Sequence record: OQ955832.1
Length of the DNA stretch: 57,756 bases
Source of the DNA: Escherichia phage vB_EcoS_PJ16
Strand: one strand, 5' to 3'
Part shown: positions 1 to 57,756 of the stretch, in pieces
Numbering within the stretch: the stretch's first letter is position 1
How the letters are laid out: the number at the start of each line of letters is the position of its first letter
The notes under the pieces: generated by a model
Told to the model about the DNA's origin: nothing
The model's input: only the letters and a program-made list of their open reading frames with translations
Databases searched by the model: none
Made by a program: the position numbers and the translations under genes

Positions 1-206
1 TATCTTTTTATAGATAACATAGAAAACATAGATATAAAGAAGAAGTAGTATAGAAAGATAGAGATAGTACATATAGTGTATTAGCTGTAAATAGAGCTAA
101 AATAAAAGTCTGGGGGATACCTATTGTAATCTATGTTTTTATGCAAGTCTTTGAAATCATTGTGATTATGTGTTACGTATTTATGTATGTGATCGAAAAT
201 TAGTGC
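1..206. repeat. AT-rich non-coding repeat region (right half of hub A, continuing from the window end)
   Basis: No RBS-preceded ORF; short direct repeats (catagat, GCAYGTTGTG); positions 1-80 are homologous to 17749-17830. Confidence 0.6.
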
Positions 207-1860: not shown

Positions 1861-2024
1861 TTCGTATCACCTATCATGAGCAAACAATCTGGTGTGTTAA
1901 TCCAGAAACGATCACCAACATCCGGGGAAGCATCCCAGGGCATCTTTTCAGTTACTTCCAGTTCAAGATCACCACGGGTATTTTCAGCGATAATTTTTAC
2001 AGGTACACCGTCATAGGTACTCAT
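1857..2024 (-). CDS. Hypothetical small protein (55 aa)
   Basis: Not in track; ATG overlaps RdgC stop (ATGA) and its stop overlaps next start. Confidence 0.4.
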
Positions 2025-2935
2025 CGTTTTGCCTCCCCGCCGAGTGCCACCACAAGTTGTTTAATCAGCGCCTGAAGTTCACCTGTCATTAGTACAAAAT
2101 CAGCGTCAAATCGTGCCAGAACATCTTCAAGGTCAATATCGTCATTCTGTCCGATCAGTCCATCACAGAACTTCACACGGTTTAATGTCATGCTGTCAGT
2201 TAGCGTAAACGTTACCCGCTGCTGCCAGTCCAGAGCCAGCTTTGTAACGACTTTCCCTGCTTCAATATGTGTGGCTATTTCATCACTGGTTAAATCCTGT
2301 TTTTTAACGCGTGCAACACCGCCGTCAGTCAGGATTGCTTTCAGTTCAGCAGCGTCACCCATTGTAAAACCTGTTGGCGCGTTTCCTGAACGTACCCACT
2401 CCGTTGTTGTCAGTTCAACAGGGTTTTCAGTTGTCAGTGGGACTACAGGCAGACTACCCAGGGATTTACGCAACAGCGCTAACGCATCTTCAGCCCGTTT
2501 AGCACTGGACGCATCAACCACGATTAACCCGTTAGTGATGTCGATCCATAACTGTGTACGACTGTTTTTAACGAACACCCGTGGTAACAGACTGTGTAAC
2601 ACTTCGTCTTTCAGCGCGTCTTTCTCTGTTTTCTTCAGTTTACGCGCCTGTTCAGCTTCCAGTTTGGCGATTCGCGCGTTCAGATGTTGTTTAATGACCG
2701 GGCCAGGAATAATCTTTTCCTGTTTCTGAATAGTCAGCAGATATTGCCCATTAGCCTGGTGAACCAGTGTATGATGTTGTTCAGTTGCCGGAATCCATCC
2801 AGTACGCGCCATATCCTGTGAACCGCACGGATTGAATTGAAACGCACACAGGCTGTCTTCCAGCGTTGGTAAATGGGCCATTAATTGCATCGGGTTAGTC
2901 AGGCGATAAATGATTGCGTTTTTAAAGAAGTTCAT
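2021..2935 (-). CDS. rdgC: Recombination-associated protein RdgC
   Basis: 304 aa; N-terminus FKNxxxYRL and long blocks ([53 protein letters not shown]) match enterobacterial RdgC as recalled. Confidence 0.85.
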
Positions 2936-13152: not shown

Positions 13153-13478
13153 AAGTACGATCCCACAATTGCAGCACAGTTGACGATCGCTAAACGCGTT
13201 GCTTTTTCACGGTCTTCTCCGTGGCTAACTGGTTGCTTATAACTAACGCCAGTATCAGGGTTATTAACCGTCACTTCGTTGTCACGAACATCCAGATCCA
13301 TGTACATGTTAACCATCAGACTGAAAGCATCCTCATTACGTGTAAGAGGGTTCCACAGGCGACCATTACCTATATCAATACCTTCGTTTATGTAACGTTC
13401 GTCGTACGCGATGTAATATTTACCCTGGATTTCAGCAGCCCGTGCTGCGTTGACTAATAAATCACGATTGTTCATCAT
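13149..13478 (-). CDS. Hypothetical protein (109 aa)
   Basis: Track ORF, ATGA-coupled. Confidence 0.45.
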   Translation of the reverse strand: MMNNRDLLVNAARAAEIQGKYYIAYDERYINEGIDIGNGRLWNPLTRNEDAFSLMVNMYMDLDVRDNEVTVNNPDTGVSYKQPVSHGEDREKATRLAIVNCAAIVGSYL

Positions 13479-13978
13479 ACCCGTCCTGTTGATCCAAACC
13501 CGCCATTACGCTGACTATCAACATCTGGTAATTCTTCCACTTCAACCAGGTTAACAGGTTCGACACGTTCAACCATAAGCTGACAAACGCGTTCACCGTC
13601 TGCGATGGTCTGTAATTTCTGCCCGTGGTTAGTCAGCGTAACGTAGTATTCTTCTTTGTAATCACGATCACCGATACCCACACAGTTGATCAGTGACAAA
13701 CCGTGTTTAAGACTCATGCCGGAACGTGGATAGAATTTAATGCAATATCCGCTATCAACTGACATTTTCAAACCAGTGGGGATCATAGCGCGGTCGCCGG
13801 GCCATAATGCGATTGTTCCTGCAACAACCGGACGTTCCACTTTAGCGCCTGATTCTGTGAATATAGTTACCGATTCTTCCCACAGGCAAGCACGAACGTC
13901 TAACCCGGCGCTGTCCGGTGTTGCACGTGTCGGAAGTTCAGCGCGGGGTGTTAGTTTTTTGATATACAGGTTAGTCAT
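13475..13978 (-). CDS. dut: dUTP diphosphatase (dUTPase)
   Basis: All five dUTPase motifs: SAGLD, PRSG, GIGDRDYK, GERVCQL, RNGGFGSTGR. Confidence 0.85.
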   Translation of the reverse strand: MTNLYIKKLTPRAELPTRATPDSAGLDVRACLWEESVTIFTESGAKVERPVVAGTIALWPGDRAMIPTGLKMSVDSGYCIKFYPRSGMSLKHGLSLINCVGIGDRDYKEEYYVTLTNHGQKLQTIADGERVCQLMVERVEPVNLVEVEELPDVDSQRNGGFGSTGRV

Positions 13979-37703: not shown

Positions 37704-38144
37704 TTACTCCAGTGAATAGATTGTAATTTCGCAATCAATGTTGTTCAATTTTTCATAAATCAAAGGTCTGACTACTGACCATGATAAACCACCATTTGAA
37801 CAACCTAATCGTGGTAATGAAACTGAACGTATTTTAAAGTGTCTGATGACTTTTATAAGATCGTCCAAACCATATTCAATCCATTGTAATTGTGAAGGAT
37901 TACACCAATGCTCTTTAGTTGGAAAATTAATAATTATCTGATTGTTTTCAGATGTGACAAACATTTTTCCAACTTTTACATGGTGTTGTTCACACGCTTT
38001 TCGGTACTGTTTAAAATTGTCAGGAAAGGTTCTTTTAAACGCTAAAGCAATACCTTTACCCATTACACCAACGCAATTCACCGTGTTTACTAGAGCATGT
38101 GAATTGCTTTTAAGAAGGTCCCCCGTGACTTCTATTACTGACAT
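37704..38144 (-). CDS. Macrodomain protein, TARG1/DarG-like
   Basis: GDLLxxNSHALVNTVNCVGVMGKGIALAFK and PRLGCSNGGLSW resemble TARG1-type macrodomain signature. Confidence 0.7.
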   Translation of the reverse strand: MSVIEVTGDLLKSNSHALVNTVNCVGVMGKGIALAFKRTFPDNFKQYRKACEQHHVKVGKMFVTSENNQIIINFPTKEHWCNPSQLQWIEYGLDDLIKVIRHFKIRSVSLPRLGCSNGGLSWSVVRPLIYEKLNNIDCEITIYSLE

Positions 38145-38649
38145 AACAATAACTCCTGTACGCTTGTCGTTTTATTTTCTGATAGTCGGAAACTTTTACA
38201 GATCTCGTTTTACATTCACCGATACGATATGGGTCGAAAACAAACATCACCTGTGAACGGTCATTTCCTCCTGCTGGTAACCTGGTGTCAGGATCTACAA
38301 ACGCTATACGACCTTTAAACACCCATAGTTCCGAACAATGTGTCAGTGCTTTGTGAAACCAGTCTGCAGACGTCATAGCGTTCACGAGTAATAACGAACC
38401 AGTTCCTTGATGAACAGTGGTTATTATTTTATTAACCCATGGAGACGGATCGCTGTATGGTGGATTACACCAGACGAACCCACCACCATTACTTTGAACA
38501 ATCGAATTCCAGTCTTTATTCAGACTATCAGTGATAAACAACGAACATTTAGCGTTAGAACCATCGGTACACACATCAAGAACAAGTGGGAATTCACGAG
38601 AAACGTTATCAATAAAATCCCACGGTGTTTCCCAGTTGTCTTTAGCCAT
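38110..38649 (-). CDS. DNA N6-adenine methyltransferase (phage Dam type)
   Basis: Track ORF 38110-38766 trimmed to ATG 38649 (GGAGAG RBS); WETPWDF, VLDVCTD, NPPY motifs. Confidence 0.7.
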   Translation of the reverse strand: MAKDNWETPWDFIDNVSREFPLVLDVCTDGSNAKCSLFITDSLNKDWNSIVQSNGGGFVWCNPPYSDPSPWVNKIITTVHQGTGSLLLVNAMTSADWFHKALTHCSELWVFKGRIAFVDPDTRLPAGGNDRSQVMFVFDPYRIGECKTRSVKVSDYQKIKRQAYRSYCYVSNRSHGGPS

Positions 38650-38995
38650 GTTCCGGTACGCTCTCCACGCTGTAATAAACGGGGATACCCAGACGTTCAG
38701 CTTCTGCAATTTCCGCAATAGTCCCGGACGAACGACGATAATCAGGAAGCACCAGAACAGCGTCACAGCGGCGCATAATTTCTAACGTGCCTGACAGGTA
38801 GTATTCAGGTTGTATATTGCGTAAACCTCCGTCAAAGTCCCACAATTCGGTGTTCTTGTGAGGGATAACAGGGAACCACCCCGGACGTTGTAAAGCAAGT
38901 CGTTTACCTGCCTGTTCAGCGCGTGACACGTTACGGGATGTTTTAAGCGCACAGTCAGCACGATAAGGCCCGGCAATGTAACAGAGTTTAATCAT
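38642..38995 (-). CDS. Nucleoside 2-deoxyribosyltransferase-like protein
   Basis: Track ORF 38642-39085 trimmed to ATG 38995; IAGPY start and DAVLVLPDYRRSSGTIAEIAEAERLGIPV resemble the fold signature. Confidence 0.5.
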   Translation of the reverse strand: MIKLCYIAGPYRADCALKTSRNVSRAEQAGKRLALQRPGWFPVIPHKNTELWDFDGGLRNIQPEYYLSGTLEIMRRCDAVLVLPDYRRSSGTIAEIAEAERLGIPVYYSVESVPEHG

Positions 38996-39219
38996 GGTTG
39001 TTTTCCTGCATCTGTATAATGAGCTATGATTTCTTCCAAACAATTTATTGTGAAGAGAAATTTTAAACCAACCCGACATTCCCAAATATGTTCTCTCAGA
39101 TCTCTTGGGTCGGTGTACCCTCCGACAATAATAAAATTTTTAATCTCTTGTTTATATTTATCGGGAACGAAGTTGAAAAAGTCACGTTTAGTCTTAATTT
39201 CCCGACTGAATCTACTCAT
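38992..39219 (-). CDS. Hypothetical protein (75 aa)
   Basis: Track ORF, ATGA-coupled. Confidence 0.4.
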   Translation of the reverse strand: MSRFSREIKTKRDFFNFVPDKYKQEIKNFIIVGGYTDPRDLREHIWECRVGLKFLFTINCLEEIIAHYTDAGKQP

Positions 39220-39787: not shown

Positions 39788-41644
39788 TTACCGAAGTGGT
39801 GCAACGAGTTTTTCAGCTTCTTTGATGTAAAAATCATAATTGAGTGTTGCCCGGTTAAAACGTTTCATGTCGTTACATTCCGTGGTCAACCAACCTTTAC
39901 ACACGGACATGCGGCGTTCAGGCGCGTCAGGGTTCAGTTTCAGTGATTTTGCCAGCGGTGGCATGACTTTTGTCAACGGTGCACCATCTGTACTGACGTA
40001 ATAACGGGTAATGTTCTGAACCTGTTTATCACCCCATAATAACTTGCTGTTACGCGGTACTTTCGTCACCAACATAAAATCGTGAATGTCTTCGTGTGAT
40101 GTTATAAAATCACGAATGTCTTTATTGTGTACCAGTGCTGCTTCAGCCGCTTTTGCGACAACCTGCATACTGTGGTTTTGATGCCAACCAAGGTCAACAC
40201 TGTGGCAATAAGCACCTTTACGTTTAACTTTCTTACCACCTTCATAAACAGCGATGTAGTTATTTACATCGCGGATAAACATCACGTCATAAATCGCTTC
40301 TTCAAGCTGGAGTCTGGTTAATTTTTCCCACGCGTGACGAACCTGTTCTACTTGTCCGATAAATACTCGTGGTACGTAAACAGTAAGACCATCTGTGTTA
40401 GCCTGAATCATGGATAAACCAGGGATTTTCAGAAGTTCTTCAGCCAACATGCACAAAAGTAACTGTCCATTAATCGTAATAGCCATTGTATAAGCAGGAT
40501 CGTAGAATGGACTGTATACGTTATTACTGTCACCATACACACCGTTTAATGCCAGTTTTAACATTGCATTTTCTGGTGTACCTTTCGGGTAACTGGAACG
40601 CATGTCATAAACATTTTTATAAATGGTGCAAAATTGTTTTCCCAAATGTGCAGGGTAAAGTTCATTACTAATCGCAAGGTTTGGATAAAAACTGGCAACA
40701 TCCAAATCGATGATCACATAATTTTCAGTGGACCTTATAGTTTGAGATTCAATAGACCCGTGGATACCACCCGTACCAAAATCAAACGAGAACCCGTTAA
40801 TATCTGCGCTTAAATCAGTAAACACACCTTTTGTTTCAGTGATGACCTGTTGACGTAACCAGTTAAGAACACGATTAAATTCAGGCTGTTCAAAACGGAC
40901 ATAAGGGAAAATCACGCTGTTCAATGCGATTGATAGTCTGTGCGTCTGTCGTGGTTTTCTGCTACCCGGTTCGAAACATTGAATACCTGATTTTTCAAGT
41001 TCCATAATGAAATAGTCTTTACCGATTTTCGTGTCATTATGGTTCATGAAATTACGACCGTATTTAGCAGAAAGTTCACGACGAAAATCTATCAGCTTTT
41101 TACTGTGTTTATAAAACATCAAAGTCGCTTTCAAATCGTGTATCAGATATTGACGAAGCGTATCAATTTGAGAATTGGTTAAATAAGTCCCTGGTGTAAA
41201 CGGGAGGTCTTCAATGTTTTCCATTCTCATATTGAATTCAAGTGTTTTCAGACTTGTTCGTTTTGCCTGATTGTCGAAATGATGAATTTTATACAAATCA
41301 AGCTGGGGAACTATCCAGTCTTTTTCCCACACCATATGAGCAAAACGATTTTCATCACCAGCGTTAATTATCGAATCACCTTTTTTGTAAATGTCTGCGT
41401 TGGTGATATACATGATGTTGTTCAAAATAGAATGCTGAACAGGATAGTCGTAACCCAGATTGTTATAACCAACTTCTTCAGCACGATGTTCACGCAAATA
41501 TTCTGTGAACAGGTAAAAAGCCTGACGATCGTCGCGACGATGTGAAATCTCAAAAATATAAGGTGTTTCAGTTAATGCGTGAATAGCACCGAACAGGAAA
41601 ACATTAGGATAGTTTTCAATATCGTGAACGTAAGCATCTGACAT
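39788..41644 (-). CDS. DNA polymerase, family B-like (compact)
   Basis: 618 aa; motif A DLDVASFYPNL, motif B KLALNGVYG, motif C-like ANTDGL, exo I-like HDIEN. Confidence 0.75.
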   Translation of the reverse strand: MSDAYVHDIENYPNVFLFGAIHALTETPYIFEISHRRDDRQAFYLFTEYLREHRAEEVGYNNLGYDYPVQHSILNNIMYITNADIYKKGDSIINAGDENRFAHMVWEKDWIVPQLDLYKIHHFDNQAKRTSLKTLEFNMRMENIEDLPFTPGTYLTNSQIDTLRQYLIHDLKATLMFYKHSKKLIDFRRELSAKYGRNFMNHNDTKIGKDYFIMELEKSGIQCFEPGSRKPRQTHRLSIALNSVIFPYVRFEQPEFNRVLNWLRQQVITETKGVFTDLSADINGFSFDFGTGGIHGSIESQTIRSTENYVIIDLDVASFYPNLAISNELYPAHLGKQFCTIYKNVYDMRSSYPKGTPENAMLKLALNGVYGDSNNVYSPFYDPAYTMAITINGQLLLCMLAEELLKIPGLSMIQANTDGLTVYVPRVFIGQVEQVRHAWEKLTRLQLEEAIYDVMFIRDVNNYIAVYEGGKKVKRKGAYCHSVDLGWHQNHSMQVVAKAAEAALVHNKDIRDFITSHEDIHDFMLVTKVPRNSKLLWGDKQVQNITRYYVSTDGAPLTKVMPPLAKSLKLNPDAPERRMSVCKGWLTTECNDMKRFNRATLNYDFYIKEAEKLVAPLR

Positions 41645-41724
41645 AATAAAATCCTGATAAGTAAATGGGGCGCTATGGCCCCATGTCTGTTTAAAGCGGT
41701 ATGTCGTCCCAGTTCCAGTAACTA

Positions 41725-42588
41725 TCAGTAACCGTTACCGTTGAGAAAATTAGGGGCCGGGGTGGTCATTACCATATAACCGTTAGCGATCAGTTGTTCA
41801 TCGTTCCAACCTTGCGCAATAAACTGTTCGTAAGTTGCACCACCTGCTTTTTCAGTCATTACCTTCACAGGCGCTGCTACAGGTGCTGCCGCTGGTGTAG
41901 GCGCTGCTACAGGTGCTGCCGCTGGTATAGGCGCTGCTACAGGTGCTGCCGCTGGTGTAGGCGCTGCTACAGGTGCTGCCGCTGGTGTTACGCCGATCGG
42001 ACGTGCACCTTCAGGCATTGCAGGTGCAGCACCGAACACAGAGGCCGGAGCCGGACCGGAAATGATTTCTTCACCTGCATAAAGCAATTGCGCCATTTCC
42101 ATATTGATATACACACCAGCCTGATTACCTGTACGACCGTTTGCAACAGATGACCCGCTGATACGGTAGTAATACCCTTTTTTCGCCAGATTTTTATCAA
42201 TAACTGGCTGGTACGCTGCGTTATAAACAGGACACGCGTCAATAGCCACGTTGCGTGAGAAACCAATAACCCAGTGACCAGCATAACCCGTTTTACTCGC
42301 ATGTTTCGGATCGTCACCGTTAATAATTTTCCATGCGAAAGTTGGTTGTTGTGGTTCGCCGTTCACATAGTGTGAGTTAGCCGCTCGCATGATCGCCTGG
42401 AATACCGTACCCAGTTCACCTTGTTCTTCCCACCAGTTCGCCGCTGTTTTAGGAAACGCCAGACCAACCCACCAGTTATGTTTTTCAGGTGCTAACGGTT
42501 TATTTTCGTGGTCATGAGTGTTGATGTCGAAAAAAGAACCGCCAACCAGACGACCAACCGGAGTTACAAAAGATTCTTTCTGTGCCAT
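41725..42588 (-). CDS. ssDNA-binding-like protein (DUF2815-like, putative) with Pro/Ala repeat linker
   Basis: N-terminal VTPVGRLVGGSFF pattern; four PTPAAAPVAA repeats; sits between nuclease and polymerase. Confidence 0.4.
   Translation of the reverse strand: MAQKESFVTPVGRLVGGSFFDINTHDHENKPLAPEKHNWWVGLAFPKTAANWWEEQGELGTVFQAIMRAANSHYVNGEPQQPTFAWKIINGDDPKHASKTGYAGHWVIGFSRNVAIDACPVYNAAYQPVIDKNLAKKGYYYRISGSSVANGRTGNQAGVYINMEMAQLLYAGEEIISGPAPASVFGAAPAMPEGARPIGVTPAAAPVAAPTPAAAPVAAPIPAAAPVAAPTPAAAPVAAPVKVMTEKAGGATYEQFIAQGWNDEQLIANGYMVMTTPAPNFLNGNGY
41871..41990 (-). repeat. 30-bp tandem repeat x4 (in-frame, Pro/Ala-rich)
   Basis: gcgctgctacaggtgctgccgctggtgtag repeated with 1-2 substitutions. Confidence 0.85.
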
Positions 42589-42603
42589 GTTATTAACCTT
42601 CTT

Positions 42604-43749
42604 TTAAAGTGGACGTGCGCCAGTCGGCATCGTCACGGGTTTATTAAAAACAGATTCTGCCAGTGTGCTGTGACCTTTACGCGGGTCACTGTCAGGTACT
42701 AAAACTGGCTGACCTTCTGGTTTTGTAGTACACATGTCAACAAGTGCCGGGGGCAGTGATTTTTCCAGTGTTGACAACGGTTTTAATTTACGTTCGTACA
42801 ATGTTTCAGGGTTTACACCAAACATGGGTGCAGCACCGATCAGTTTTCCTTCGTCCGTAAGCTGACGTCGGGTTTGCTTTGTTGCGAGTTTAAAACCCGG
42901 TAAAGCCTTACCCATGCGAACAAAATGTAACCCCTGAGTATGTAACGCTGTTTTTGCTTCAGAAGAACGCGTATACAGTTCTTCAAGAAGTGCCAGACGA
43001 CGCGCTACTTCTTCTGGCGTAAGTGATGCTGGTGCATCAAGAACAGTAGCCAATTCTAAAACCCTCTCATACATCGCCGGACACATACCACGCGCCGGAC
43101 AGTAATGACAATGACTACCAACATTTAACGGTGCGTCTGGTTTATGTGCTTCGTTAAACCCGTGTTTAAATCGTTCAACCCAGTCCATCAATGTCACCCG
43201 GTTAAACTCCCATCGTCTTACAGGTCCGAGTGGGTGATAAGCCCGTGGCTGAACGATTGTGAACACAACACGCTTAACAGTATCAATACAACGTTGATCC
43301 AGTGCGTAATAGATCCCCTGTGAGTTATCAACTGCTTCAACTGCAACATGACCGTATTTATAATCCCATACGTAAAGCGTATCAGTATTAAAGTCATACC
43401 AGCGATAATCACAGGTTCCGTACTGACCGGGTAACAACCAGTCAATGTGAATGCGAACTTCTGAAAACAGCGGATCGAGTTTCGCACCAACTGAAAGAAC
43501 ATCTGCTATAAAGTCATCCGCGTAAATGTGCATGTCTTCAGTAACCTGAACACCGTTAGGAGCAAGACACGGCATTAATGGCGGTTTACCTTTAATCTTC
43601 TGTTCTAACACCCAGTGCCCGGCTGTACCTTCTTCAGCACTGGGTGACGATGGTTCTACATAGTCAATCCGCTGTGACAGTTGAACGCTACCCGGACAAG
43701 CTAACCAACGTTTTGATCCACTGGCACTAAAGGTAGCGTGACTTGTCAT
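42604..43749 (-). CDS. PD-(D/E)XK nuclease, DUF2800 (Cas4-like) family
   Basis: N-terminus HATFSASGSKRWLACPGS and C-terminal Cys cluster CHYCPARGMC. Confidence 0.65.
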   Translation of the reverse strand: MTSHATFSASGSKRWLACPGSVQLSQRIDYVEPSSPSAEEGTAGHWVLEQKIKGKPPLMPCLAPNGVQVTEDMHIYADDFIADVLSVGAKLDPLFSEVRIHIDWLLPGQYGTCDYRWYDFNTDTLYVWDYKYGHVAVEAVDNSQGIYYALDQRCIDTVKRVVFTIVQPRAYHPLGPVRRWEFNRVTLMDWVERFKHGFNEAHKPDAPLNVGSHCHYCPARGMCPAMYERVLELATVLDAPASLTPEEVARRLALLEELYTRSSEAKTALHTQGLHFVRMGKALPGFKLATKQTRRQLTDEGKLIGAAPMFGVNPETLYERKLKPLSTLEKSLPPALVDMCTTKPEGQPVLVPDSDPRKGHSTLAESVFNKPVTMPTGARPL

Positions 43750-44501
43750 CAGAATGCCCCACCCATTTGTTTAACAGACTCAGCCTGACCGACAATATTT
43801 TCAGCATCAGCAGGGGCAGCGTTGATACGTTCAATCAGTTCGATGATAGATTTCAGTTTCACCGGGTCATCAATTTGCATCACGTTCTGAGTTTCATACA
43901 GTCCCATGATTCGCTGACTTAACGGCGCAGCACGGTCACCCGTAATTTGTCCAAACATCTGCATCAGTGCTGACTGAAGAACCTGGGTGTTATAAACTTT
44001 AGCCGGATCCGTGGTTACAGGTTGCTCAGCAGGCGCGACTGGTGCTGCTGGTGCTGCTGGTACAACTGGAGCTACCGGAGCGGCAGGAACCGCTGGAGCA
44101 GGATCAACAGGTGCTACATAACCCGGTGCAAGTTCTGCAGGTCCAGTATAACGCCCTGCTTCAACTGCTTCAGCGATAAGTTCACGTTTAACACCGTCAA
44201 CAAACGCTTCATCCAGTTTTTTCTTCTGACGCCACAGACCGTCACCTTTGTTCAGGGATTTACTGTCAGTGTGGATACGCGGATCATGACGCAAACCCCA
44301 TTTGTCGAACTCTTCAGTGCTGGTTTCGTTATCGTCAACATCTTCAGTTGGTGCAGATACAACAGGTAGTGATTCAGCAACGACAGAAACGATTTCTTCT
44401 TTCGTAATCGGTGAGACACTTTTACCAGCAATCGCCGCTGCCAGATTGTTGATCGCAGTTTCCAGACCCGGAGCAGTTACAAGTAATTTAACTTCGAACA
44501 T
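43749..44501 (-). CDS. Hypothetical protein with Pro/Ala-rich linker (250 aa)
   Basis: Track ORF; first gene after promoters 44557/44620. Confidence 0.5.
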   Translation of the reverse strand: MFEVKLLVTAPGLETAINNLAAAIAGKSVSPITKEEIVSVVAESLPVVSAPTEDVDDNETSTEEFDKWGLRHDPRIHTDSKSLNKGDGLWRQKKKLDEAFVDGVKRELIAEAVEAGRYTGPAELAPGYVAPVDPAPAVPAAPVAPVVPAAPAAPVAPAEQPVTTDPAKVYNTQVLQSALMQMFGQITGDRAAPLSQRIMGLYETQNVMQIDDPVKLKSIIELIERINAAPADAENIVGQAESVKQMGGAF

Positions 44502-44676: not shown

Positions 44677-47355
44677 GTGAGTCAACAACCACTTCGTTAT
44701 TACCAACAAGATGCAGTTAACAACGTGCGCCAGGCATGGTCGAACGGTGCTAATGACGTGATTCTTGTGCTTCCCACTGGCTGTCATGCTAAAGACAGTG
44801 AAATTCTTATGTACAACGGTGATGTTATAAAAGTACAGGATGTTTTACCTGGTGATTTATTGATGGGTCGTGATTCATTACCACGAACCGTGTTAGCGTT
44901 AGCTCGTGGCAGAGAAGAAATGTTTGAAATCATCCCAGTCAAAGGGTCACCTTTCCGTGTAAATAAAAATCACATATTACATTTGATACATACTGAATCA
45001 AAAGAAGAAATAGACATTTCTGTAAGTGATTACTTACAGAAATCAAATTATTTCAAACATTGCCACAAGTTGCTTCGTACGGGGGTTGATTTCGAATATC
45101 GCGAACCACCGACTTTAGACCCGTGGTTTGCCGGGATTATGATCGGTGATGGTAGTTACAAATCAGGTACACCACGTCTGACAAATGCAGACTCAAGTAT
45201 TTTAGAAAAGGCTACTTTTTACGCAAACCTTTTTGGATGTGTCTGCAAAGATGTAAAAGGTAACAACTGTGTTACACGTTATTTCGGTTATCCCGGGTCA
45301 TCGCGTTCGGTTAGTAACCCGTTGAGCGATGCGATGAAATCTGATGGATTGTGGGGGAAAATCGCACATGAAAAATCAATACCTGATGTGTATAAAAAAG
45401 GAAGCAGAAACACACGTTTAAACGTTCTGGCAGGATTAATTGATAGCGACGGATATATTTCACATAAGGGCGTTGATTTTGTGTCCAAATCACAGCAGTT
45501 AGCCGCTGATTTAGTGTTCGTTGCAAGAAGCCTGGGGAAAGCCGCGTATTACAAAGCCTGTGTTAAATCATGTCAAACGGGTAATGCAAACATTTACTAC
45601 AGAGTGAGTATTAGTGGCGATTTAAGCGATGTACCATTCGTTAGAAAACATGGTGATTTAACGAGAAAGCAGAAGAAAAATCATTTAGTAACGGGCTTTT
45701 CTGTTCGGTCTGTTGGTGAAGATAATTTTTATGGTTTTATGGTTAACGGTGACAATCTTTATCTTACGTCAGACTTCATCATCCATCATAACAGTGGTAA
45801 AACACGTACTATGGCTGAACTACTAAAATCCGACGGTGTAAAAGTCATCCAGGCACACCGCAAAGAACTAGTTAGTCAAATCGCAATGGCTGTTGCTCGC
45901 CAGGGGTTAGCACACAGATTTATAGCGCAAAAAGATACTGTTAAGTTTGCAACTAATCAGCAGATGAAAACGCTTGGTTACAGTACCTATTCCCCCGGTG
46001 CTGACATCGTTATTACCAGTTCACAAACGTTAAGAACAAAACAGTACGAACGATGGTACAACGACGTGTCTCTTGTATTCAGCGACGAAGCGCATCACCT
46101 GGTGCGTGGCACACAGTGGGGAGACTGCCGGGAAAAATTCCCTAACGCTAAAGGTCTGGGTGTTACAGCCACACCGATCCGTGCTGACGGTAAAGGCCTG
46201 GGTCGTCATGCATCAGGTTACGCAGATCAGATGATCATTGGTCCGTCAATGCGTGAATTAATCAGTCAACAACACCTGGCTGATTATCGTCTGATCATGG
46301 CTGAAACAGACCTGGAATTAACCGCAGAAATGATTTCTCATACGACGGGTGATTACAAACCATCTGCGTTAAAAAAAGCGATGGAAGATTCAAACATTGT
46401 TGGTGATACCGTTAGTACGTGGAAAACGTATGCAGATGGTTTACTCACTGTTGTGTTTACGTGTGATGTGGATTCTGCTGAAGCACTTGCAAAAGAATTT
46501 CGCGATGCTGGCATTCCTGCAGAGGCGATCAGTTCACGAAACAGTAATCAGGAACGAGCGGATATTCTGGAACGTTTTGAACGACGTAAAACACTCGTGC
46601 TATGTAACAACGATTTATTCGGTGAAGGATACGACTGTCCGGCAATGGAATGTGCAGTAATGGATCGCCCCACAGAATCTTACTCTTTGTTTGTACAACA
46701 AATGGGTCGACCATTGCGTTTCAAACCCGGTAAAAAAGCACTGATTATTGATAAAGTCGGTAATGTTCGTCGATTTCTGGCCCGTGGTTTTCCACTTCCT
46801 GATCAGCATTACAACTGGTCTTTAGATGACCGTGACCGTCGTTCATCTAACAGCAGTGGGAACAGTAATACAACATGTACAAACAAGGGTGATCCTGATA
46901 ATGGTATTCCACCGTGTCTGAAGCCTTATCCGTCTGGTCTTCCGTGCTGCCCGTATTGTGGTCATGTTCCTGAAAAAGCCGAACGCTCAGGCCCGGATCG
47001 TGTAGAAGGTAATTTACGTGAACTGACACCTGAAGAACTGGAAGAATTACGCCGGGCAGTGGTGATAATCGACCGTGACCCTGTTGCAGTAAAAGAACAA
47101 ATGTTAAACGCGGGTGCACCCCCTGTTGCAGCTTACAGTGCAATGAAAAACATTCAGGCAATGAACGATGCACAGCGTAAGTTACGCAGCATGATCACCA
47201 CATGGGCAGGTATTCAGCGTGATAAAGGTATACCCGTTGATGACGCTTACAAGATGTTTTACAGGGTGTTTGGTGTTGATGTACTTAGTGCACAGGGCTT
47301 ACGTACTCGTGAAGCTAATGAACTCGCCGCAAGGGTTGCAAGTTCATTAATCTGA
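44677..47355 (+). CDS. SF2 DEAH-type DNA helicase, intein-containing precursor
   Basis: GTG start with AAGGA RBS; Walker A split as LPTG / SGKT by intein; DEAHH, TATP, QQMGRPLR motifs; C-terminal CxxC zinc ribbon. Confidence 0.85.
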   Translation: MSQQPLRYYQQDAVNNVRQAWSNGANDVILVLPTGCHAKDSEILMYNGDVIKVQDVLPGDLLMGRDSLPRTVLALARGREEMFEIIPVKGSPFRVNKNHILHLIHTESKEEIDISVSDYLQKSNYFKHCHKLLRTGVDFEYREPPTLDPWFAGIMIGDGSYKSGTPRLTNADSSILEKATFYANLFGCVCKDVKGNNCVTRYFGYPGSSRSVSNPLSDAMKSDGLWGKIAHEKSIPDVYKKGSRNTRLNVLAGLIDSDGYISHKGVDFVSKSQQLAADLVFVARSLGKAAYYKACVKSCQTGNANIYYRVSISGDLSDVPFVRKHGDLTRKQKKNHLVTGFSVRSVGEDNFYGFMVNGDNLYLTSDFIIHHNSGKTRTMAELLKSDGVKVIQAHRKELVSQIAMAVARQGLAHRFIAQKDTVKFATNQQMKTLGYSTYSPGADIVITSSQTLRTKQYERWYNDVSLVFSDEAHHLVRGTQWGDCREKFPNAKGLGVTATPIRADGKGLGRHASGYADQMIIGPSMRELISQQHLADYRLIMAETDLELTAEMISHTTGDYKPSALKKAMEDSNIVGDTVSTWKTYADGLLTVVFTCDVDSAEALAKEFRDAGIPAEAISSRNSNQERADILERFERRKTLVLCNNDLFGEGYDCPAMECAVMDRPTESYSLFVQQMGRPLRFKPGKKALIIDKVGNVRRFLARGFPLPDQHYNWSLDDRDRRSSNSSGNSNTTCTNKGDPDNGIPPCLKPYPSGLPCCPYCGHVPEKAERSGPDRVEGNLRELTPEELEELRRAVVIIDRDPVAVKEQMLNAGAPPVAAYSAMKNIQAMNDAQRKLRSMITTWAGIQRDKGIPVDDAYKMFYRVFGVDVLSAQGLRTREANELAARVASSLI
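44782..45792 (+). mobile_element. Intein with double-LAGLIDADG homing endonuclease in helicase P-loop
   Basis: Begins with Cys after LPTG, ends HN before Ser; LAGLIDSDG and FAGIMIGDG motifs; 337 codons in frame. Confidence 0.8.
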
Positions 47356-47396: not shown

Positions 47397-47888
47397 ATGA
47401 CAACGCTTGAACAATGGGCGATTCGTCACGGTATTAGTCAGATGGCGTTGTACGAGTTATACGCTCTTTATCAGCCTGACGGAACACCACACGAAGACGG
47501 TGTAAGTGAAAGCGCTACCAGTAAAGAGTGTGAACTGATTGCAGCACGTGCCGGGCAACGTATCTGGCGTAATAACTCAGGTGCTCTGAAAAACGAAAAA
47601 GGAATGATGGTTCGTTATGGTCTTGGTAACACCAGTGCGAAAATCAACGCTGTTATGAAGTCAAGCGACTACATCGGCATTAAAACCAAAATCGTTACAC
47701 CGGATATGATCGGTTCGAAAGTGGGCGTCTTTATTGCTGCCGAAATGAAACGCCCTGACTGGTACATGACCCCGAGTGACAGACATGCACAAGCACAGGC
47801 CACTTTCGGTGCGATTGTTGAAAACGCAGGTGGTGAATTTCGTTTCATCACTCATCCTTCACAATTTGAAAAATGGATTAAACAATGA
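47397..47888 (+). CDS. VRR-NUC domain nuclease
   Basis: RNNSG, D-Y-IG, E-K and QAQ elements in order. Confidence 0.6.
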   Translation: MTTLEQWAIRHGISQMALYELYALYQPDGTPHEDGVSESATSKECELIAARAGQRIWRNNSGALKNEKGMMVRYGLGNTSAKINAVMKSSDYIGIKTKIVTPDMIGSKVGVFIAAEMKRPDWYMTPSDRHAQAQATFGAIVENAGGEFRFITHPSQFEKWIKQ

Positions 47889-48163: not shown

Positions 48164-50518
48164 ATGAAAGGGTTACTGAACCGTAAACAGTGGGTCATGT
48201 GGCGGCTTGAGACAGTCGCCGATCGTCCAAAACCAACAAAAGTACCATATAGCCCGGTACACGGTTATAAAGCCAGTACCACTAACCCTAACGACTGGTC
48301 TGACTATCACACCGCGTTAGGTATGGCGCAAATGTACGGTATGTCCGGCGTTGGTTTTGTATTCACAGAAAATGACCCTTATTTCTTTATCGATGTTGAT
48401 AACTGTCTGGTAGATCAGGCAACAGCTACGTGGTCACCTCTGGCGCATGAATTCGTAAACCGTTTCCCAAATGCTTACACTGAAGTAAGTCAGTCAGGAA
48501 CAGGTTTACATATCATCTGTGCTTATACCAGCATGCCGGAAGGTTTTAACAGTCTGAACGACCAGAAAACCGGGTTGGAAATGTACTGGCGTGATCGTTT
48601 CGTCGCGATGACGCTCACGGGGAATGGTGATGTTGATATTGATTATACCCAGGGCATTCATGATTCTATTGCCCGGTATGGTCGTATCCGTTCAGACCGT
48701 TCCGCACGCTGGACAACAGCACCCTGTGATGACTGGTCAGGTCCGACAGACGACGATGAACTGATTAAAATGGCGTTAAATTCGTCCAGTGCTGCTTCAG
48801 TATTTGGCAATAAAGCGTCATTTGCGGATCTGTGGAATGCAAACGTTGAACGCCTGTCTGTGTCATATCCCAGCGACCAGGGAAAAGACTACAATGCATC
48901 TGCCGCTGATGCTGCCCTGTGTTCACACCTTGCATTCTGGACTGGGAAAGATTGCGAACGCATTGAACGGTTGTTTAACCGTTCCGGGCTGGTTCGTGGT
49001 AAATGGACAGATCGTCAGGATTACCGTGAAAACACAATTCTGGGCGCTGTGGAACGTTGTGATACTGTGTATCGTAGTCAACCGACACTGACACCAGAAC
49101 TGATGAAAGCAGTCACACCAGCGCCTACCATCGTTCCTAACGGTGGAACACCTGCGTACATGAGTGTGAAACCCGGTGAAGGTGCATATGGTTCAAACCA
49201 CACAGTTAACGCATCCACTTTCGTTAATAACTATTATCCGAACAACACATTGATTTTCGTCCAGCAACAGCCGTACCGGTTTAACGGTCGTGTATGGGAA
49301 CGTGTGAGTGAAGATGAACTGAAACATCAGATATCTATGGCAATGCTCGCCAGCGAACCAAAAGCTGACGTGATTAATGGTACGTACAAGGTATTGTCGT
49401 ATTTATTCACACGGGCTGATCGTGAGCTTGGAACATGGCCCGGCGTTGATGTGTCACACTACATTGTATGTCAGAATGGGATACTGGATGTACACACGGG
49501 TAAATGTGATGCACACAACCCGGATTTCTTTACAACCAGTATTTTACCGTATAGCTACGATCCGTTTGCCCGTGCACCAGCGTTTGAACAGTTTCTTAAT
49601 ACAACTCTGGAAGGTGATCAGGAACGTATCGCACTGTTGCAGGAATGGCTGGGTTACATGCTTGTCAACTCGTATGACTATCAGAAAGCGATGCTGTTGA
49701 TTGGTGCACCACGTTCCGGTAAAGGTACGATTGGTCGCATCATTCAGGCACTGGTAGGTGATGAAGCGTATGCAGGGATCACACTAGAGGGTTTAGCCAG
49801 TGATGCGGTACTTGAAACTGTGCTGGATAAATCTGTGCTGTTTATTGGTGATGCTCACAGTGTGTCCGGGCCTGATCGCAACCGAATTCTGGACCGTTTC
49901 AAATCTATTACAGGTTGTGATGCGATTCCGGTTAATCGTAAGTATAAAGGTGCATGGAACGGTCGTTTACCTGGACGTATGACACTGGCTGCTAACAACA
50001 TACCGGCATTTGCTGATGATTCAGGTGCAATGGCTAACCGTTTACTGATCCTACCATTCAACATTTCGTTCCTGGGTCGTGAAGATACCACTCTGGAAGC
50101 ACGACTGATGAAAGAACTACCTGGGATCTGTAACTGGGCGATTGAAGGTTTACAACGGTTACGTGCAAACGGACGGTTTACTGAACCAAAAGCAAGTCTG
50201 GAAGAACGTCAGGAAATTATGGACCAACAATCACCACTTAGAAGTTTTATCAGAGATTGTTGCGAATTGGTATCTGATGGTGAGGTGCACACTGAAGAAC
50301 TCTATGGTCGTTATCGTCTCTGGAAAACACAGGAAGGTGGTCCAGCAATGACTAAAACTGCATTTAGTCGGGCGTTTAAATCCACCCTTCGTGGTAAAGT
50401 GAAAAAAGACGTTGTTAATATAAATAACGTTCGACTAAACGGTTTCAGGGGTATTCGTCTTCTCCCTTTTCAGTCAACAGCTAATATAGTGCCTTTCCCA
50501 CCTGCGAGTAATGGTTAG
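48164..50518 (+). CDS. Primase-polymerase / P4-D5-type helicase
   Basis: 784 aa; N-terminal prim-pol-like region (FIDVD), C-terminal Walker A GAPRSGKGT. Confidence 0.75.
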   Translation: MKGLLNRKQWVMWRLETVADRPKPTKVPYSPVHGYKASTTNPNDWSDYHTALGMAQMYGMSGVGFVFTENDPYFFIDVDNCLVDQATATWSPLAHEFVNRFPNAYTEVSQSGTGLHIICAYTSMPEGFNSLNDQKTGLEMYWRDRFVAMTLTGNGDVDIDYTQGIHDSIARYGRIRSDRSARWTTAPCDDWSGPTDDDELIKMALNSSSAASVFGNKASFADLWNANVERLSVSYPSDQGKDYNASAADAALCSHLAFWTGKDCERIERLFNRSGLVRGKWTDRQDYRENTILGAVERCDTVYRSQPTLTPELMKAVTPAPTIVPNGGTPAYMSVKPGEGAYGSNHTVNASTFVNNYYPNNTLIFVQQQPYRFNGRVWERVSEDELKHQISMAMLASEPKADVINGTYKVLSYLFTRADRELGTWPGVDVSHYIVCQNGILDVHTGKCDAHNPDFFTTSILPYSYDPFARAPAFEQFLNTTLEGDQERIALLQEWLGYMLVNSYDYQKAMLLIGAPRSGKGTIGRIIQALVGDEAYAGITLEGLASDAVLETVLDKSVLFIGDAHSVSGPDRNRILDRFKSITGCDAIPVNRKYKGAWNGRLPGRMTLAANNIPAFADDSGAMANRLLILPFNISFLGREDTTLEARLMKELPGICNWAIEGLQRLRANGRFTEPKASLEERQEIMDQQSPLRSFIRDCCELVSDGEVHTEELYGRYRLWKTQEGGPAMTKTAFSRAFKSTLRGKVKKDVVNINNVRLNGFRGIRLLPFQSTANIVPFPPASNG

Positions 50519-57475: not shown

Positions 57476-57756
57476 CCCTCCTTATTCAACCACGGGTAAA
57501 GCATAACTCGTGTTGGCAGCTAGTGCAAGATGTGCTTTATATGTTAGTGTATTTACACCTAATGCATGTTGTGCTTTAGCAGCTAGTGCAAGATGCACGT
57601 TGTGTATTAGCTGTTAGTGCACGTTGTGTATCTATGTTGGTACAGCTAATGCACGTTGTGAATTATATAGTGCATATAGTGCATTAAAGTTATACTTAAC
57701 ATAGATTTCGTCATGTTTATTTTTTGATCAACCCCTCATTATCTTTTTATAGATAA
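57476..57756. repeat. AT-rich non-coding repeat region (left half of hub A)
   Basis: Direct repeats GCACGTTGTG x3 plus variants, agctagtgcaagatg x2; 57700-57756 homologous to 17690-17760. Confidence 0.65.
57498..57530 (-). promoter_or_regulatory. Putative sigma70 promoter for 56672-57475 gene
   Basis: Minus strand TTGCAC-17 bp-TATGCT followed by leader ACCCGTGGTT similar to hub B promoters. Confidence 0.4.

What the first reader, a model, noticed from the sequence alone, without database searches (positions are those of the whole stretch)
39788..43749. Replication module: compact family-B-like polymerase with DUF2800 nuclease and SSB-like protein
The polymerase shows B-family motifs (DxxSFYPN, KxxxNGxYG, NTDG) in only 618 aa and is adjacent to a Cas4-like PD-(D/E)XK nuclease and a putative SSB. 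This trio often co-occurs in phages, but with differing polymerase types. The exact polymerase class here is worth checking.
Basis: partly seen in the sequence, partly recalled or inferred. Interest (0 to 1): 0.4.

Follow-up and report, generated by a model that had tools for sequence, protein, structure and literature searches.

The report
Known phage replication cassette with compact PolB
Three adjacent genes of an already sequenced E. coli phage encode a Cas4-like nuclease, a T7-type single-strand DNA-binding protein and a small proofreading family B DNA polymerase of a subgroup described in 2011, so the finding is correct but ordinary.

Summary
Window 39788-43749 (minus strand) contains three consecutive genes. 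The first is a 381-aa DUF2800 nuclease (Pfam E 1.9e-56) with Cas4-type motifs and a Cys-X2-Cys-X5-Cys cluster. The second is a 287-aa T7 gp2.5/Enc34-type SSB. The third is a 618-aa DNA polymerase.

The window is the complete genome of Escherichia phage vB_EcoS_PJ16 (genus Sashavirus), where the gene is already annotated "DNA polymerase".

The polymerase has no Pfam hit, but it is family B:
- A profile of 41 diverse relatives hits PDB chains that are all family B among the 60 listed (best E 8.4e-7).
- A confident AlphaFold model (pLDDT 89) gives only family B structures in the Foldseek top 50.

The protein is small because ExoI starts at residue 8 (no N-terminal domain) and the fingers are short. 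Its invariant QxNTDG motif C is the hallmark of the "PolIIphages" subgroup (Kazlauskas & Venclovas 2011). It is 29% identical to the polymerase of a Crassvirales phage.

In other phages the same DUF2800-DUF2815-polymerase cassette carries PolA. Verdict: supported, already known, low interest.

The parts
39788..41644 (-). Compact proofreading family B DNA polymerase (618 aa), NTDG / 'PolIIphages' subgroup, related to a Crassvirales phage polymerase
41615..41623 (-). ExoI motif D8-I-E10 of the 3'-5' exonuclease domain. Its position at the N-terminus shows that the usual PolB N-terminal domain is absent.
   Evidence: D8 and E10 are invariant in A2 and at least 90% conserved in A1. ExoII N61..D66 (nt 41447-41464) and ExoIII Y166..D170 (nt 41135-41149) are likewise conserved.
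40679..40708 (-). Polymerase motif A, DLDVASFYPN (D313, D315)
   Evidence: Aligned to DFRSLYPS of archaeal PolB, with D315 opposite D404 of 9°N pol. D315 is invariant.
40532..40558 (-). Polymerase motif B, KLALNGVYG (K363, N367, Y370, G371). It lies only 48 residues after motif A, so the fingers are short.
   Evidence: Aligned to KILANSFYG of archaeal PolB, where the spacing is 83 residues. K363 and G371 are invariant.
40388..40405 (-). Polymerase motif C, QANTDG. The first Asp of the canonical DTD is an invariant Asn (N416); D418 is retained.
   Evidence: Aligned to YADTDG of 9°N/KOD pol. Q414, N416, T417, D418 and G419 are invariant. QxNTDG occurs in 146 of 150 representatives. 'NTDG' is named as the subgroup hallmark in PMC3201878.
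40256..40264 (-). N461-N-Y463, in the position of the PolB KxY motif (Lys replaced by Asn)
   Evidence: Aligned to KKKYA of archaeal PolB. N461 and Y463 are invariant. Among the 150 representatives the motif is NNY in 109 and NSY in 15.
41665..41684 (-). GC-rich hairpin between the SSB and polymerase genes (terminator- or attenuator-like)
   Evidence: (7 pairs, 5 of them G-C). The equivalent site is annotated 'terminator' in phage Sasha. The T-tail is weak and the function is untested.
41725..42588 (-). T7 gp2.5 / Enc34 ORF6-type ssDNA-binding protein. It has an OB-fold domain (aa 1-190, nt 42019-42588), a Pro/Ala-rich linker (nt 41869-42018) and a conserved non-acidic C-terminal module (nt 41728-41868).
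   Evidence: PF10991, E 1.1e-5, 25.6 bits against a cut-off of 26; 16 of 26 relatives hit PF10991. PHROG 7011, E 8e-98. Profile hit to 4JG2, E 3.3e-7. AF2 model with pLDDT above 90 for aa 1-170. The nine Foldseek hits at E<=0.001 are 4JG2, 4KLK, T7 gp2.5 1JE5 and Enc34 5ODJ/K/L.
41869..41988 (-). 30-bp x 4 tandem repeat encoding the (T/I)PAAAPVAAP linker of the SSB
   Evidence: Tandem Repeats Finder, 97% matches. The repeat number differs among relatives. It is annotated as a direct tandem repeat in phage Sasha.
42604..43749 (-). DUF2800 Cas4/RecB-like PD-(D/E)XK exonuclease with a predicted 4Fe-4S cluster
   Evidence: PF10926, E 1.9e-56 full length, plus PF12705 PDDEXK_1. PHROG 69 'exonuclease', E 4.5e-89. 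C18, D114, D129-Y-K131, Q144xxxY148 and C214-x2-C217-x5-C223 are all invariant in five divergent homologues.
43749..44501 (-). First gene of the same leftward unit: a 250-aa protein of unknown function with a Pro/Ala-rich linker. Its stop codon overlaps the DUF2800 start (TGATG).
   Evidence: No Pfam hit. PHROG 27827, function unknown. Junction sequence. The best sigma70-like match in the region lies just upstream (44562-44534, 10 of 12 positions), but the number of such sites is not above chance.
44677..47355 (+). Divergently transcribed SF2 (ResIII/Helicase_C) helicase, interrupted by a 337-aa Hint+LAGLIDADG intein (nt 44782-45792) in the Walker A loop
   Evidence: Pfam. Boundaries. The intein-less Sasha homologue is 97% identical in the exteins.
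47397..47888 (+). Endonuclease-like protein of the rightward replication operon. In the equivalent position the Streptococcus cassette has an annotated VRR-NUC gene.
   Evidence: PHROG 93 'endonuclease', E 1.2e-22. No Pfam hit. A VRR-NUC gene is annotated beside the Streptococcus phage cassette.
48164..50518 (+). Primase-polymerase / SF3 helicase (NrS-1 polymerase HBD + D5_N + DUF5906), the likely source of primers for the PolB
   Evidence: Pfam E 8.5e-22, 2e-12 and 3e-11. Annotated 'DNA primase' in phage Sasha.

Best explanation
This is the core of the replication module of a Sashavirus, Escherichia phage vB_EcoS_PJ16. A leftward unit encodes, in order, a 250-aa protein of unknown function, a Cas4/RecB-like DUF2800 exonuclease, a T7 gp2.5/Enc34-type SSB and a compact family B DNA polymerase. 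The polymerase is a two-lobed enzyme. Its DEDD 3'-5' proofreading exonuclease starts at residue 8. Its polymerase domain has motif A (D315), a short fingers subdomain carrying motif B (K363), and motif C in the variant form NTDG, where D418 is the retained metal ligand. It belongs to the primer-extending PolB subgroup that Kazlauskas & Venclovas (2011) called 'PolIIphages'. Inferred mechanism: the divergently transcribed primase-polymerase/SF3 helicase and the SF2 helicase open the fork and lay down primers. The PolB extends and proofreads them. The SSB coats the displaced or lagging strand and, like gp2.5, probably also anneals complementary strands. The DUF2800 nuclease resects DNA ends so that, with the SSB/annealase, it feeds recombination-dependent replication and concatemer formation. 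Shown here: the identities of the proteins, the polymerase family and conservation of the catalytic residues. Inferred: primer type, protein-protein contacts and the recombination role.
Against: No member of this PolB subgroup turned up with a solved structure (best single-sequence PDB hit E 0.018) or with biochemical characterisation in my literature searches, so activity is inferred from conserved residues. Pfam's PolB models do not recognise the protein at all. The first Asp of motif C and the Lys of KxY are replaced. The SSB lacks the acidic C-terminal tail that mediates polymerase and helicase contacts in T7 gp2.5 and Enc34 ORF6 (PMC5686142), so the coupling between SSB and polymerase may differ. 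The recombination role of DUF2800 is an analogy, not a test.
Confidence: 0.92

Rival explanations
1. The polymerase is a divergent family A (Pol I / T7-like) enzyme, as in most phages that carry the DUF2800-DUF2815 cassette.
Confidence: 0.01
2. It is a protein-primed PolB (phi29/PRD1 type). Those enzymes are also ~570-600 aa and lack the N-terminal domain.
Against: Pol II, Pol epsilon, RB69, Pol alpha and Pol delta all score higher than phi29. The motif A-to-B spacing is 48 residues and B-to-C is 53, leaving no room for the TPR1 and TPR2 insertions that define protein-primed PolBs (phi29 spacings ~134 and ~73, from established knowledge). The genome encodes a primase-polymerase/helicase. The assembled genome has no inverted terminal repeats: 30-40% identity between the ends, with a 17-nt direct overlap instead. 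The 2011 classification puts NTDG enzymes in the RNA-primed cluster.
Confidence: 0.03
3. It is an accessory repair or translesion polymerase (like its nearest structural neighbour, E. coli Pol II), or a catalytically impaired PolB, and the genome is copied by the host replisome or by the prim-pol.
Against: It is the only canonical DNA polymerase found in the genome. It sits in the slot occupied by the replicative-type PolA in sister cassettes. All DEDD residues and D315, K363 and D418 are invariant across thousands of relatives. According to PMC7544198, PolBs lacking the first motif C Asp (piPolB) are highly active.
Confidence: 0.04

Closest known systems
'PolIIphages' subgroup of RNA-primed family B polymerases (Kazlauskas & Venclovas, NAR 2011, PMC3201878)
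   Different: Nothing substantive. The paper's member list was not available here, so membership rests on the published definition rather than on a named listing of Sashavirus.
crAss-like PolB group of the EpsilonN-like clade (Kazlauskas et al., NAR 2020, PMC7544198)
   Different: I did not check whether cr1_1's polymerase is in that paper's crAss-like group. Phylogenetic placement within the paper's tree was not recomputed, and Sashavirus sequences were not found in the stored part of its supplement. Motif B is YG here but SG in cr1_1.
E. coli DNA polymerase II (PDB 3K57) and archaeal PolB (9°N, KOD)
   Different: About 160 residues shorter. There is no N-terminal domain before ExoI. The fingers are 35 residues shorter between motifs A and B. 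Motif C is NTDG instead of DTDS/DTDG, and NNY replaces KKY. Sequence identity is 10-15%.
Enterobacter phage Enc34 ORF6 and T7 gp2.5 (T7-type SSBs; DUF2815/PF10991; PDB 5ODL, 1JE5, 4JG2, 4KLK)
   Same: Same OB-fold variant; all nine Foldseek hits at E<=0.001 are these proteins. The profile hits 4JG2. The gene sits in a replication module next to a polymerase, primase, helicase and an endonuclease-like gene, as described for Enc34.
   Different: The Pfam score is just under the gathering threshold (25.6 versus 26 bits). There is no acidic C-terminal tail: 2 acidic residues in the last 29, versus 16 of 29 in Enc34 ORF6. Instead there is a repeat-encoded Pro/Ala linker and a conserved ~45-aa module ending in GNGY.
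Cas4 / AddB-type RecB-family nucleases
   Same: PD-(D/E)XK motifs (D114, D129-x-K131, QxxxY) and the C...CX2CX5C four-cysteine arrangement typical of the Cas4/AddB iron-sulfur cluster, all invariant in DUF2800. PF12705 hit.
   Different: It is a phage replication/recombination gene with no CRISPR context. It has an extra ~150-aa C-terminal region specific to DUF2800. Cluster binding and nuclease polarity are untested.
DUF2800-DUF2815-PolA cassette of Staphylococcus (Triavirus), Streptococcus and Bacteroidales phages
   Same: Same gene order and the same nuclease and SSB families. SF3 helicase/primase, SNF2 helicase and VRR-NUC genes are annotated beside the Streptococcus phage cassette.
   Different: The polymerase slot holds a family A enzyme there and a family B (NTDG) enzyme here. 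This is an example of the in-situ polymerase swapping described by Yutin et al. 2024 (PMC11348598).

Membership tests
Family B DNA polymerase | Overall fold: DEDD exonuclease domain followed by a PolB-type palm/fingers/thumb | tested here: met
Family B DNA polymerase | ExoI (DxE), ExoII (Nx2-3[FY]D) and ExoIII (Yx3D) motifs | tested here: met
   D8-I-E10, N61/N62...D66 and Y166xxxD170 are present and conserved across relatives.
Family B DNA polymerase | Motif A, DxxSLYPS | tested here: met
   D315-VASFYPN aligned to DFRSLYPS of archaeal PolB. D315 and Y320 are invariant.
Family B DNA polymerase | Motif B, KxxxNSxYG | tested here: met
   K363-LALNGVYG. K363 and G371 are invariant; N367 is invariant in A2 and at least 90% conserved in A1.
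Family B DNA polymerase | Motif C, YxDTDS with two aspartates | tested here: inconclusive
   The motif is QANTDG. The second Asp (D418, opposite D542 of 9°N pol) is kept, while the first is an invariant Asn. This variant is itself a published PolB subgroup hallmark.
Family B DNA polymerase | KxY motif | tested here: not met
   The aligned position reads N461-N-Y463. Tyr is kept and Lys is replaced. The published description of the crAss-like group notes the same divergence.
Family B DNA polymerase | N-terminal domain preceding the exonuclease domain | tested here: not met
   ExoI begins at residue 8 and the first beta-strand at residue 4. In 114 of the 150 representatives ExoI lies within the first ~60 residues (61 of them in the first ~10); the search pattern found no match in 43, and those were not followed up.
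Family B DNA polymerase | Match to curated Pfam models PF00136 / PF03104 above threshold | tested here: not met
   No Pfam family even at E<=10. Only 2 of 41 relatives give weak PF00136 hits, while 17 of 41 hit PF10108. The profile-versus-PDB and fold searches compensate.
'PolIIphages' NTDG subgroup (PMC3201878) | [quoted passage not shown] | tested here: met
crAss-like PolB group (PMC7544198) | Phylogenetic placement with Crassvirales PolB; divergent MotifC and KxY | tested here: inconclusive
   E 4e-55 and 29% identity to the cr1_1 polymerase, with shared motif variants. No tree was built, and Sashavirus was not found in the stored supplement.
Protein-primed PolB (phi29 type) | TPR1 and TPR2 insertions, a terminal protein, and inverted terminal repeats | tested here: not met
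   Motif spacings are 48 and 53 residues. There are no ITRs in the assembly. A primase is present. phi29 ranks below the primer-extending PolBs. No terminal protein gene was identified, but none was specifically searched for.
Family A DNA polymerase | PF00476 match; Pol I-type fingers and palm with motifs DYSQIELR, RxxAKxxNFGxxYG and HDE | tested here: not met
   No PF00476 hit. Family A structures align only over the exonuclease domain.
DUF2800 (PF10926) / Cas4-like RecB nuclease | Full-length PF10926 match; PD-(D/E)XK catalytic residues; C...CX2CX5C cysteines | tested here: met
   E 1.9e-56 over profile positions 1-368 of 368. C18, D114, D129, K131, Q144, Y148, C214, C217 and C223 are invariant in five homologues at 27-31% identity.
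DUF2800 (PF10926) / Cas4-like RecB nuclease | Nuclease activity and Fe-S cluster binding | not testable with these tools
   Requires purified protein.
T7-type SSB (DUF2815 / PF10991 Enc34_ssDNA-bd) | OB-fold variant shared by gp2.5, Enc34 ORF6, 4JG2 and 4KLK | tested here: met
   All nine Foldseek hits at E<=0.001 are these proteins, probability 1.00. Profile hit to 4JG2, E 3.3e-7.
T7-type SSB (DUF2815 / PF10991 Enc34_ssDNA-bd) | Pfam gathering threshold | tested here: inconclusive
   25.6 bits against a cut-off of 26 for this protein. 16 of 26 relatives match, best E 1.8e-9.
T7-type SSB (DUF2815 / PF10991 Enc34_ssDNA-bd) | Long acidic C-terminal tail | tested here: not met
   Only 2 Asp/Glu in the last 29 residues. 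A Pro/Ala linker and a conserved neutral module take its place. Enc34 ORF6 has 16 of 29.

The most novel reading that the evidence does not exclude
The NTDG/NNY compact PolBs have no solved structure that I could find and no biochemical study that I could find. They number 4,841 cluster representatives at 50% identity and occur in about 970 sequenced phages, Crassvirales included. They might operate with an unusual active-site and processivity arrangement: an Asn in place of a metal-proximal Asp, no KxY lysine, no N-terminal domain, very short fingers and no clamp. Tethering might come instead from the non-acidic, linker-borne C-terminal module of the SSB, with DNA primers supplied by the NrS-1-like prim-pol. 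If so, the cassette would be a minimal replisome with a new mode of SSB-polymerase coupling.
Probability: 0.2. Interest if true: 0.45.

Novelty: already known. Interest (0 to 1): 0.15.

Why it matters
It matters little for discovery. The genome is a deposited phage, the gene is annotated as a DNA polymerase, and both the polymerase subgroup and the swappable DUF2800-DUF2815-polymerase cassette are in the literature.

Practical value:
- It documents that Pfam has no model recognising this widespread PolB subgroup. Neither the Sashavirus enzyme nor the Crassvirales phage cr1_1 enzyme gets any hit, so automated pipelines label them only generically.
- I found no solved structure or biochemical study of any member of the subgroup, although it is common in gut and enterobacterial phages. 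A 618-aa, single-chain, proofreading PolB from a cultivable E. coli phage would be a convenient model and a possible enzyme reagent.

Tried and rejected
- **Pfam on the polymerase:** no hit at E<=0.01 or at E<=10. NCBIfam gave only a sub-threshold Pol II hit (E 0.024).
- **Single-sequence PDB search:** marginal only (E 0.018). A family profile was needed.
- **First homologue search:** the listed top 120 hits were all near-identical Sashavirus proteins, useless for modelling. I re-searched with a profile of 50%-identity cluster representatives to obtain usable diversity.
- **Family A assignment:** rejected.
- **Protein-primed PolB:** rejected on motif spacing, absence of ITRs and presence of a primase.
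- **Sliding clamp or second polymerase elsewhere in the genome:** none found among the ORFs scanned.
- **Supplements:** the 2011, 2020 and 2024 papers' stored supplements gave no explicit listing of Sashavirus polymerases.
- **Insertions in longer relatives of the polymerase:** no Pfam hit in any of six proteins tested, so the intein idea is unsupported.
- **PDB search with DUF2800:** nothing significant.
- **Promoter scan:** the number of sigma70-like sites is not above chance (11 found versus 11.3 expected), so the proposed leftward promoter is only a candidate.


Full report
**What is there.** Window 39788-43749 holds three consecutive minus-strand ORFs exactly as reported: a 381-aa protein (42604-43749), a 287-aa protein (41725-42588) and a 618-aa protein (39788-41644). 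A 250-aa ORF (43749-44501) precedes them; its stop codon overlaps the next ATG (TGATG). The 618-aa protein is 100% identical to the "DNA polymerase" of Escherichia phage vB_EcoS_PJ16, on a contig of 57756 bp, the length of the window. The region is 96-97% identical in DNA to Sashavirus genomes (Sasha, Sergei, Solent). The window is therefore a deposited, annotated phage genome. In phage Sasha the three genes are annotated exonuclease, Gp2.5-like SSB/annealing protein and DNA polymerase.

**The polymerase: sequence evidence.** Pfam gives no hit, even at E<=10. NCBIfam gives only a sub-threshold Pol II hit. PHROGs places the protein in phrog_1252 "DNA polymerase" (E 4e-214). A single-sequence search of PDB chains gives marginal hits (E 0.018-0.3), all to archaeal PolB and E. 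coli Pol II. The alignments put DLDVASFYPN on DFRSLYPS, KLALNGVYG on KILANSFYG and QANTDGL on YADTDGL.

An exhaustive HMMER search of 1.84 billion cluster representatives found 4,841 relatives at E<=0.001 and 2,055 at E<=1e-30. tblastn found the protein in 971 phage records, from Enterococcus, Rheinheimera, Pseudomonas, Vibrio, Klebsiella, Leuconostoc, Rhodobacter and crAss-like phages among others. Some of these are annotated "DNA polymerase B".

A profile of 41 representatives at 43-52% identity gave 70 PDB hits at E<=1. The 60 listed are all family B polymerases: KOD/9°N/Tgo, Pol alpha, Pol epsilon, Pol II and RB69, with a best E of 8.4e-7. 17 of the 41 relatives hit PF10108 (DNA_pol_B_exo2).

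**The polymerase: structural evidence.** An AlphaFold2 model built on 46 sequences is confident (pLDDT 89.3, pTM 0.81).
- Foldseek against the PDB returns only family B polymerases in the top 50 (E ~1e-14, probability 1.00).

**Why it is compact, and what is unusual.** ExoI (D8-I-E10) sits at the very N-terminus and the first strand starts at residue 4. The N-terminal domain that precedes the exonuclease domain in Pol II, RB69 and archaeal PolB is therefore missing. Motif A to motif B is 48 residues, against 83 in 9°N polymerase, so the fingers are short.

The following are invariant or at least 90% conserved in both family alignments: the DEDD residues (D8, E10, D66, Y166, D170), D315, K363, Q414-x-N416-T-D418-G, and N461-x-Y463. 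Motif C therefore reads NTDG, with the first Asp of DTD replaced by Asn, in 146 of 150 representatives. The KxY position reads NNY or NSY in 124 of the 150.

[quoted passage not shown] Kazlauskas et al. [quoted passage not shown] The same paper notes that PolBs lacking the first motif C Asp can be fully active.

The window protein is 29% identical (E 4e-55) to the polymerase of Crassvirales phage cr1_1. That protein shares NTDG and an N-terminal ExoI, and it also gets no Pfam hit. Yutin et al. (2024) include Sashavirus in a clade of phages that encode PolB, with one PolB-to-PolA swap in a sister subtree (PMC11348598).

**Rivals for the polymerase.**
- Protein-primed PolB is unlikely. The motif spacings leave no room for TPR1/TPR2. 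The assembled genome has no inverted terminal repeats: the ends are 30-40% identical, and there is a 17-nt direct overlap typical of a circular assembly. A primase-polymerase/SF3 helicase is encoded nearby.
- A purely accessory or inactive enzyme is unlikely. It is the only canonical DNA polymerase found among the ORFs scanned, and its catalytic residues are invariant.

**The SSB.** The 287-aa protein scores 25.6 bits on PF10991 (Enc34_ssDNA-bd), just under the 26-bit cut-off. 16 of 26 relatives match that family. PHROG 7011, "Gp2.5-like ssDNA binding and annealing protein", matches at E 8e-98. A profile of relatives hits the DUF2815 structure 4JG2 at E 3.3e-7.

The AF2 model has pLDDT above 90 for residues 1-170. 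Its nine Foldseek hits at E<=0.001 are exactly the T7-type SSB set: 4JG2, 4KLK, T7 gp2.5 (1JE5) and Enc34 ORF6 (5ODJ/K/L).

One difference stands out. The Enc34 paper states that all four T7-type SSBs have a long acidic tail, with 16 of the last 29 residues acidic in ORF6. This protein has only 2 acidic residues in its last 29. In place of the tail it has a Pro/Ala-rich linker encoded by a 30-bp x 4 tandem repeat (41869-41988), whose copy number varies among relatives. After the linker comes a conserved ~45-residue module ending in GNGY.

**The nuclease.** PF10926 (DUF2800) matches over its full length (E 1.9e-56), with PF12705 PDDEXK_1 in addition. The sequence carries D114, D129-Y-K131 and Q144xxxY148, plus C18 and C214-x2-C217-x5-C223. 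All are invariant in homologues from Streptococcus, Rhodobacter, Phocaeicola and Staphylococcus phages at 27-31% identity. This is the RecB-family motif set with the Cas4/AddB-type four-cysteine arrangement (established knowledge). DUF2800 occurs in 998 phage records.

**Context and cassette.** Downstream on the same strand lie:
- a 178-aa protein of unknown function;
- a DUF7768/nucleoside deoxyribosyltransferase-like protein;
- a Dam methyltransferase;
- a macro-domain protein.

Divergently transcribed, from 44677, are:
- an SF2 helicase;
- an endonuclease-like protein (PHROG 93);
- a 784-aa primase-polymerase/SF3 helicase (NrS-1 polymerase HBD, D5_N, DUF5906).

The order DUF2800 -> DUF2815 -> polymerase recurs in Streptococcus phiStag1, Staphylococcus phiSa2wa and Phocaeicola BV741P1. 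There the polymerase is family A (PF00476, E 4e-22 to 1.7e-17).

**Mechanism (inferred).** The prim-pol/SF3 helicase and the SF2 helicase open the DNA and prime it. The PolB extends with proofreading. The SSB protects ssDNA and, by analogy with gp2.5, anneals complementary strands. The DUF2800 exonuclease resects ends for recombination-dependent replication and concatemer formation. None of these activities has been tested for this protein set.

**Verdict.** The polymerase class is resolved as family B, NTDG subgroup. Novelty: already known. Interest: low. What remains open is that I found no solved structure or biochemical study for this very common polymerase subgroup, and that the SSB has an atypical, non-acidic C-terminus.

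Noticed in passing
window 44782-45792 (within helicase gene 44677-47355, + strand): A 337-aa intein (Hint + LAGLIDADG homing endonuclease domains) interrupts the Walker A loop of the SF2 helicase: PTG|C...HN|SGKT. The phage Sasha homologue (553 aa) reads PTGAGKT uninterrupted and is 97% identical in the exteins.
   Followed up: yes
window 41728-42018 (C-terminal third of the SSB gene): The T7-type SSB lacks the acidic C-terminal tail said to be characteristic of all T7-type SSBs. It has a Pro/Ala-rich linker, encoded by a 30-bp x 4 tandem repeat at 41869-41988 whose copy number varies among relatives, and a conserved ~45-aa neutral module ending in GNGY.
   Followed up: partly
window 43749-44501, - strand: The first gene of the leftward replication unit encodes a 250-aa protein with no Pfam hit (phrog_27827, function unknown). 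It also contains a Pro/Ala-rich linker. Its stop codon overlaps the DUF2800 start codon (TGATG), which suggests translational coupling.
   Followed up: partly
relatives of the polymerase (e.g. P0168 950 aa, P0153 811 aa, P0241 836 aa): Many relatives in the representative library match in two or three stretches and have insertions of up to roughly 330 residues near query residue 270-280. Six of the longer relatives gave no Pfam hit, so the inserts are not recognisable inteins or homing endonucleases.
   Followed up: partly
window 48164-50518, + strand: A 784-aa primase-polymerase/SF3 helicase carries the helix-bundle domain of the NrS-1 phage polymerase (PF22763, E 8.5e-22), plus D5_N and DUF5906. 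It could supply DNA rather than RNA primers.
   Followed up: no
window 37704-39085, - strand: A macro-domain protein (37704-38144), a Dam-type N6-adenine methyltransferase (38110-38766) and a DUF7768/nucleoside 2-deoxyribosyltransferase-like protein (38642-39085) lie downstream of the polymerase on the same strand.
   Followed up: no
window 2021-2935, - strand: A full-length RdgC homologue (PF04381, E 1.8e-113) is encoded by the phage. A dUTPase-like gene lies at 13475-13978.
   Followed up: no
window 1-17 and 57740-57756: The last 17 bases repeat the first 17 (TATCTTTTTATAGATAA). This is probably an overlap left by circular assembly, not a biological terminal repeat. No inverted terminal repeats are present.
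   Followed up: partly
L002 3974-5890 (Crassvirales phage cr1_1 polymerase) and window 39788-41644: Neither the Sashavirus polymerase nor the cr1_1 polymerase gets any Pfam hit. This NTDG PolB subgroup therefore appears to lack a covering Pfam model, although it has thousands of members.
   Followed up: partly
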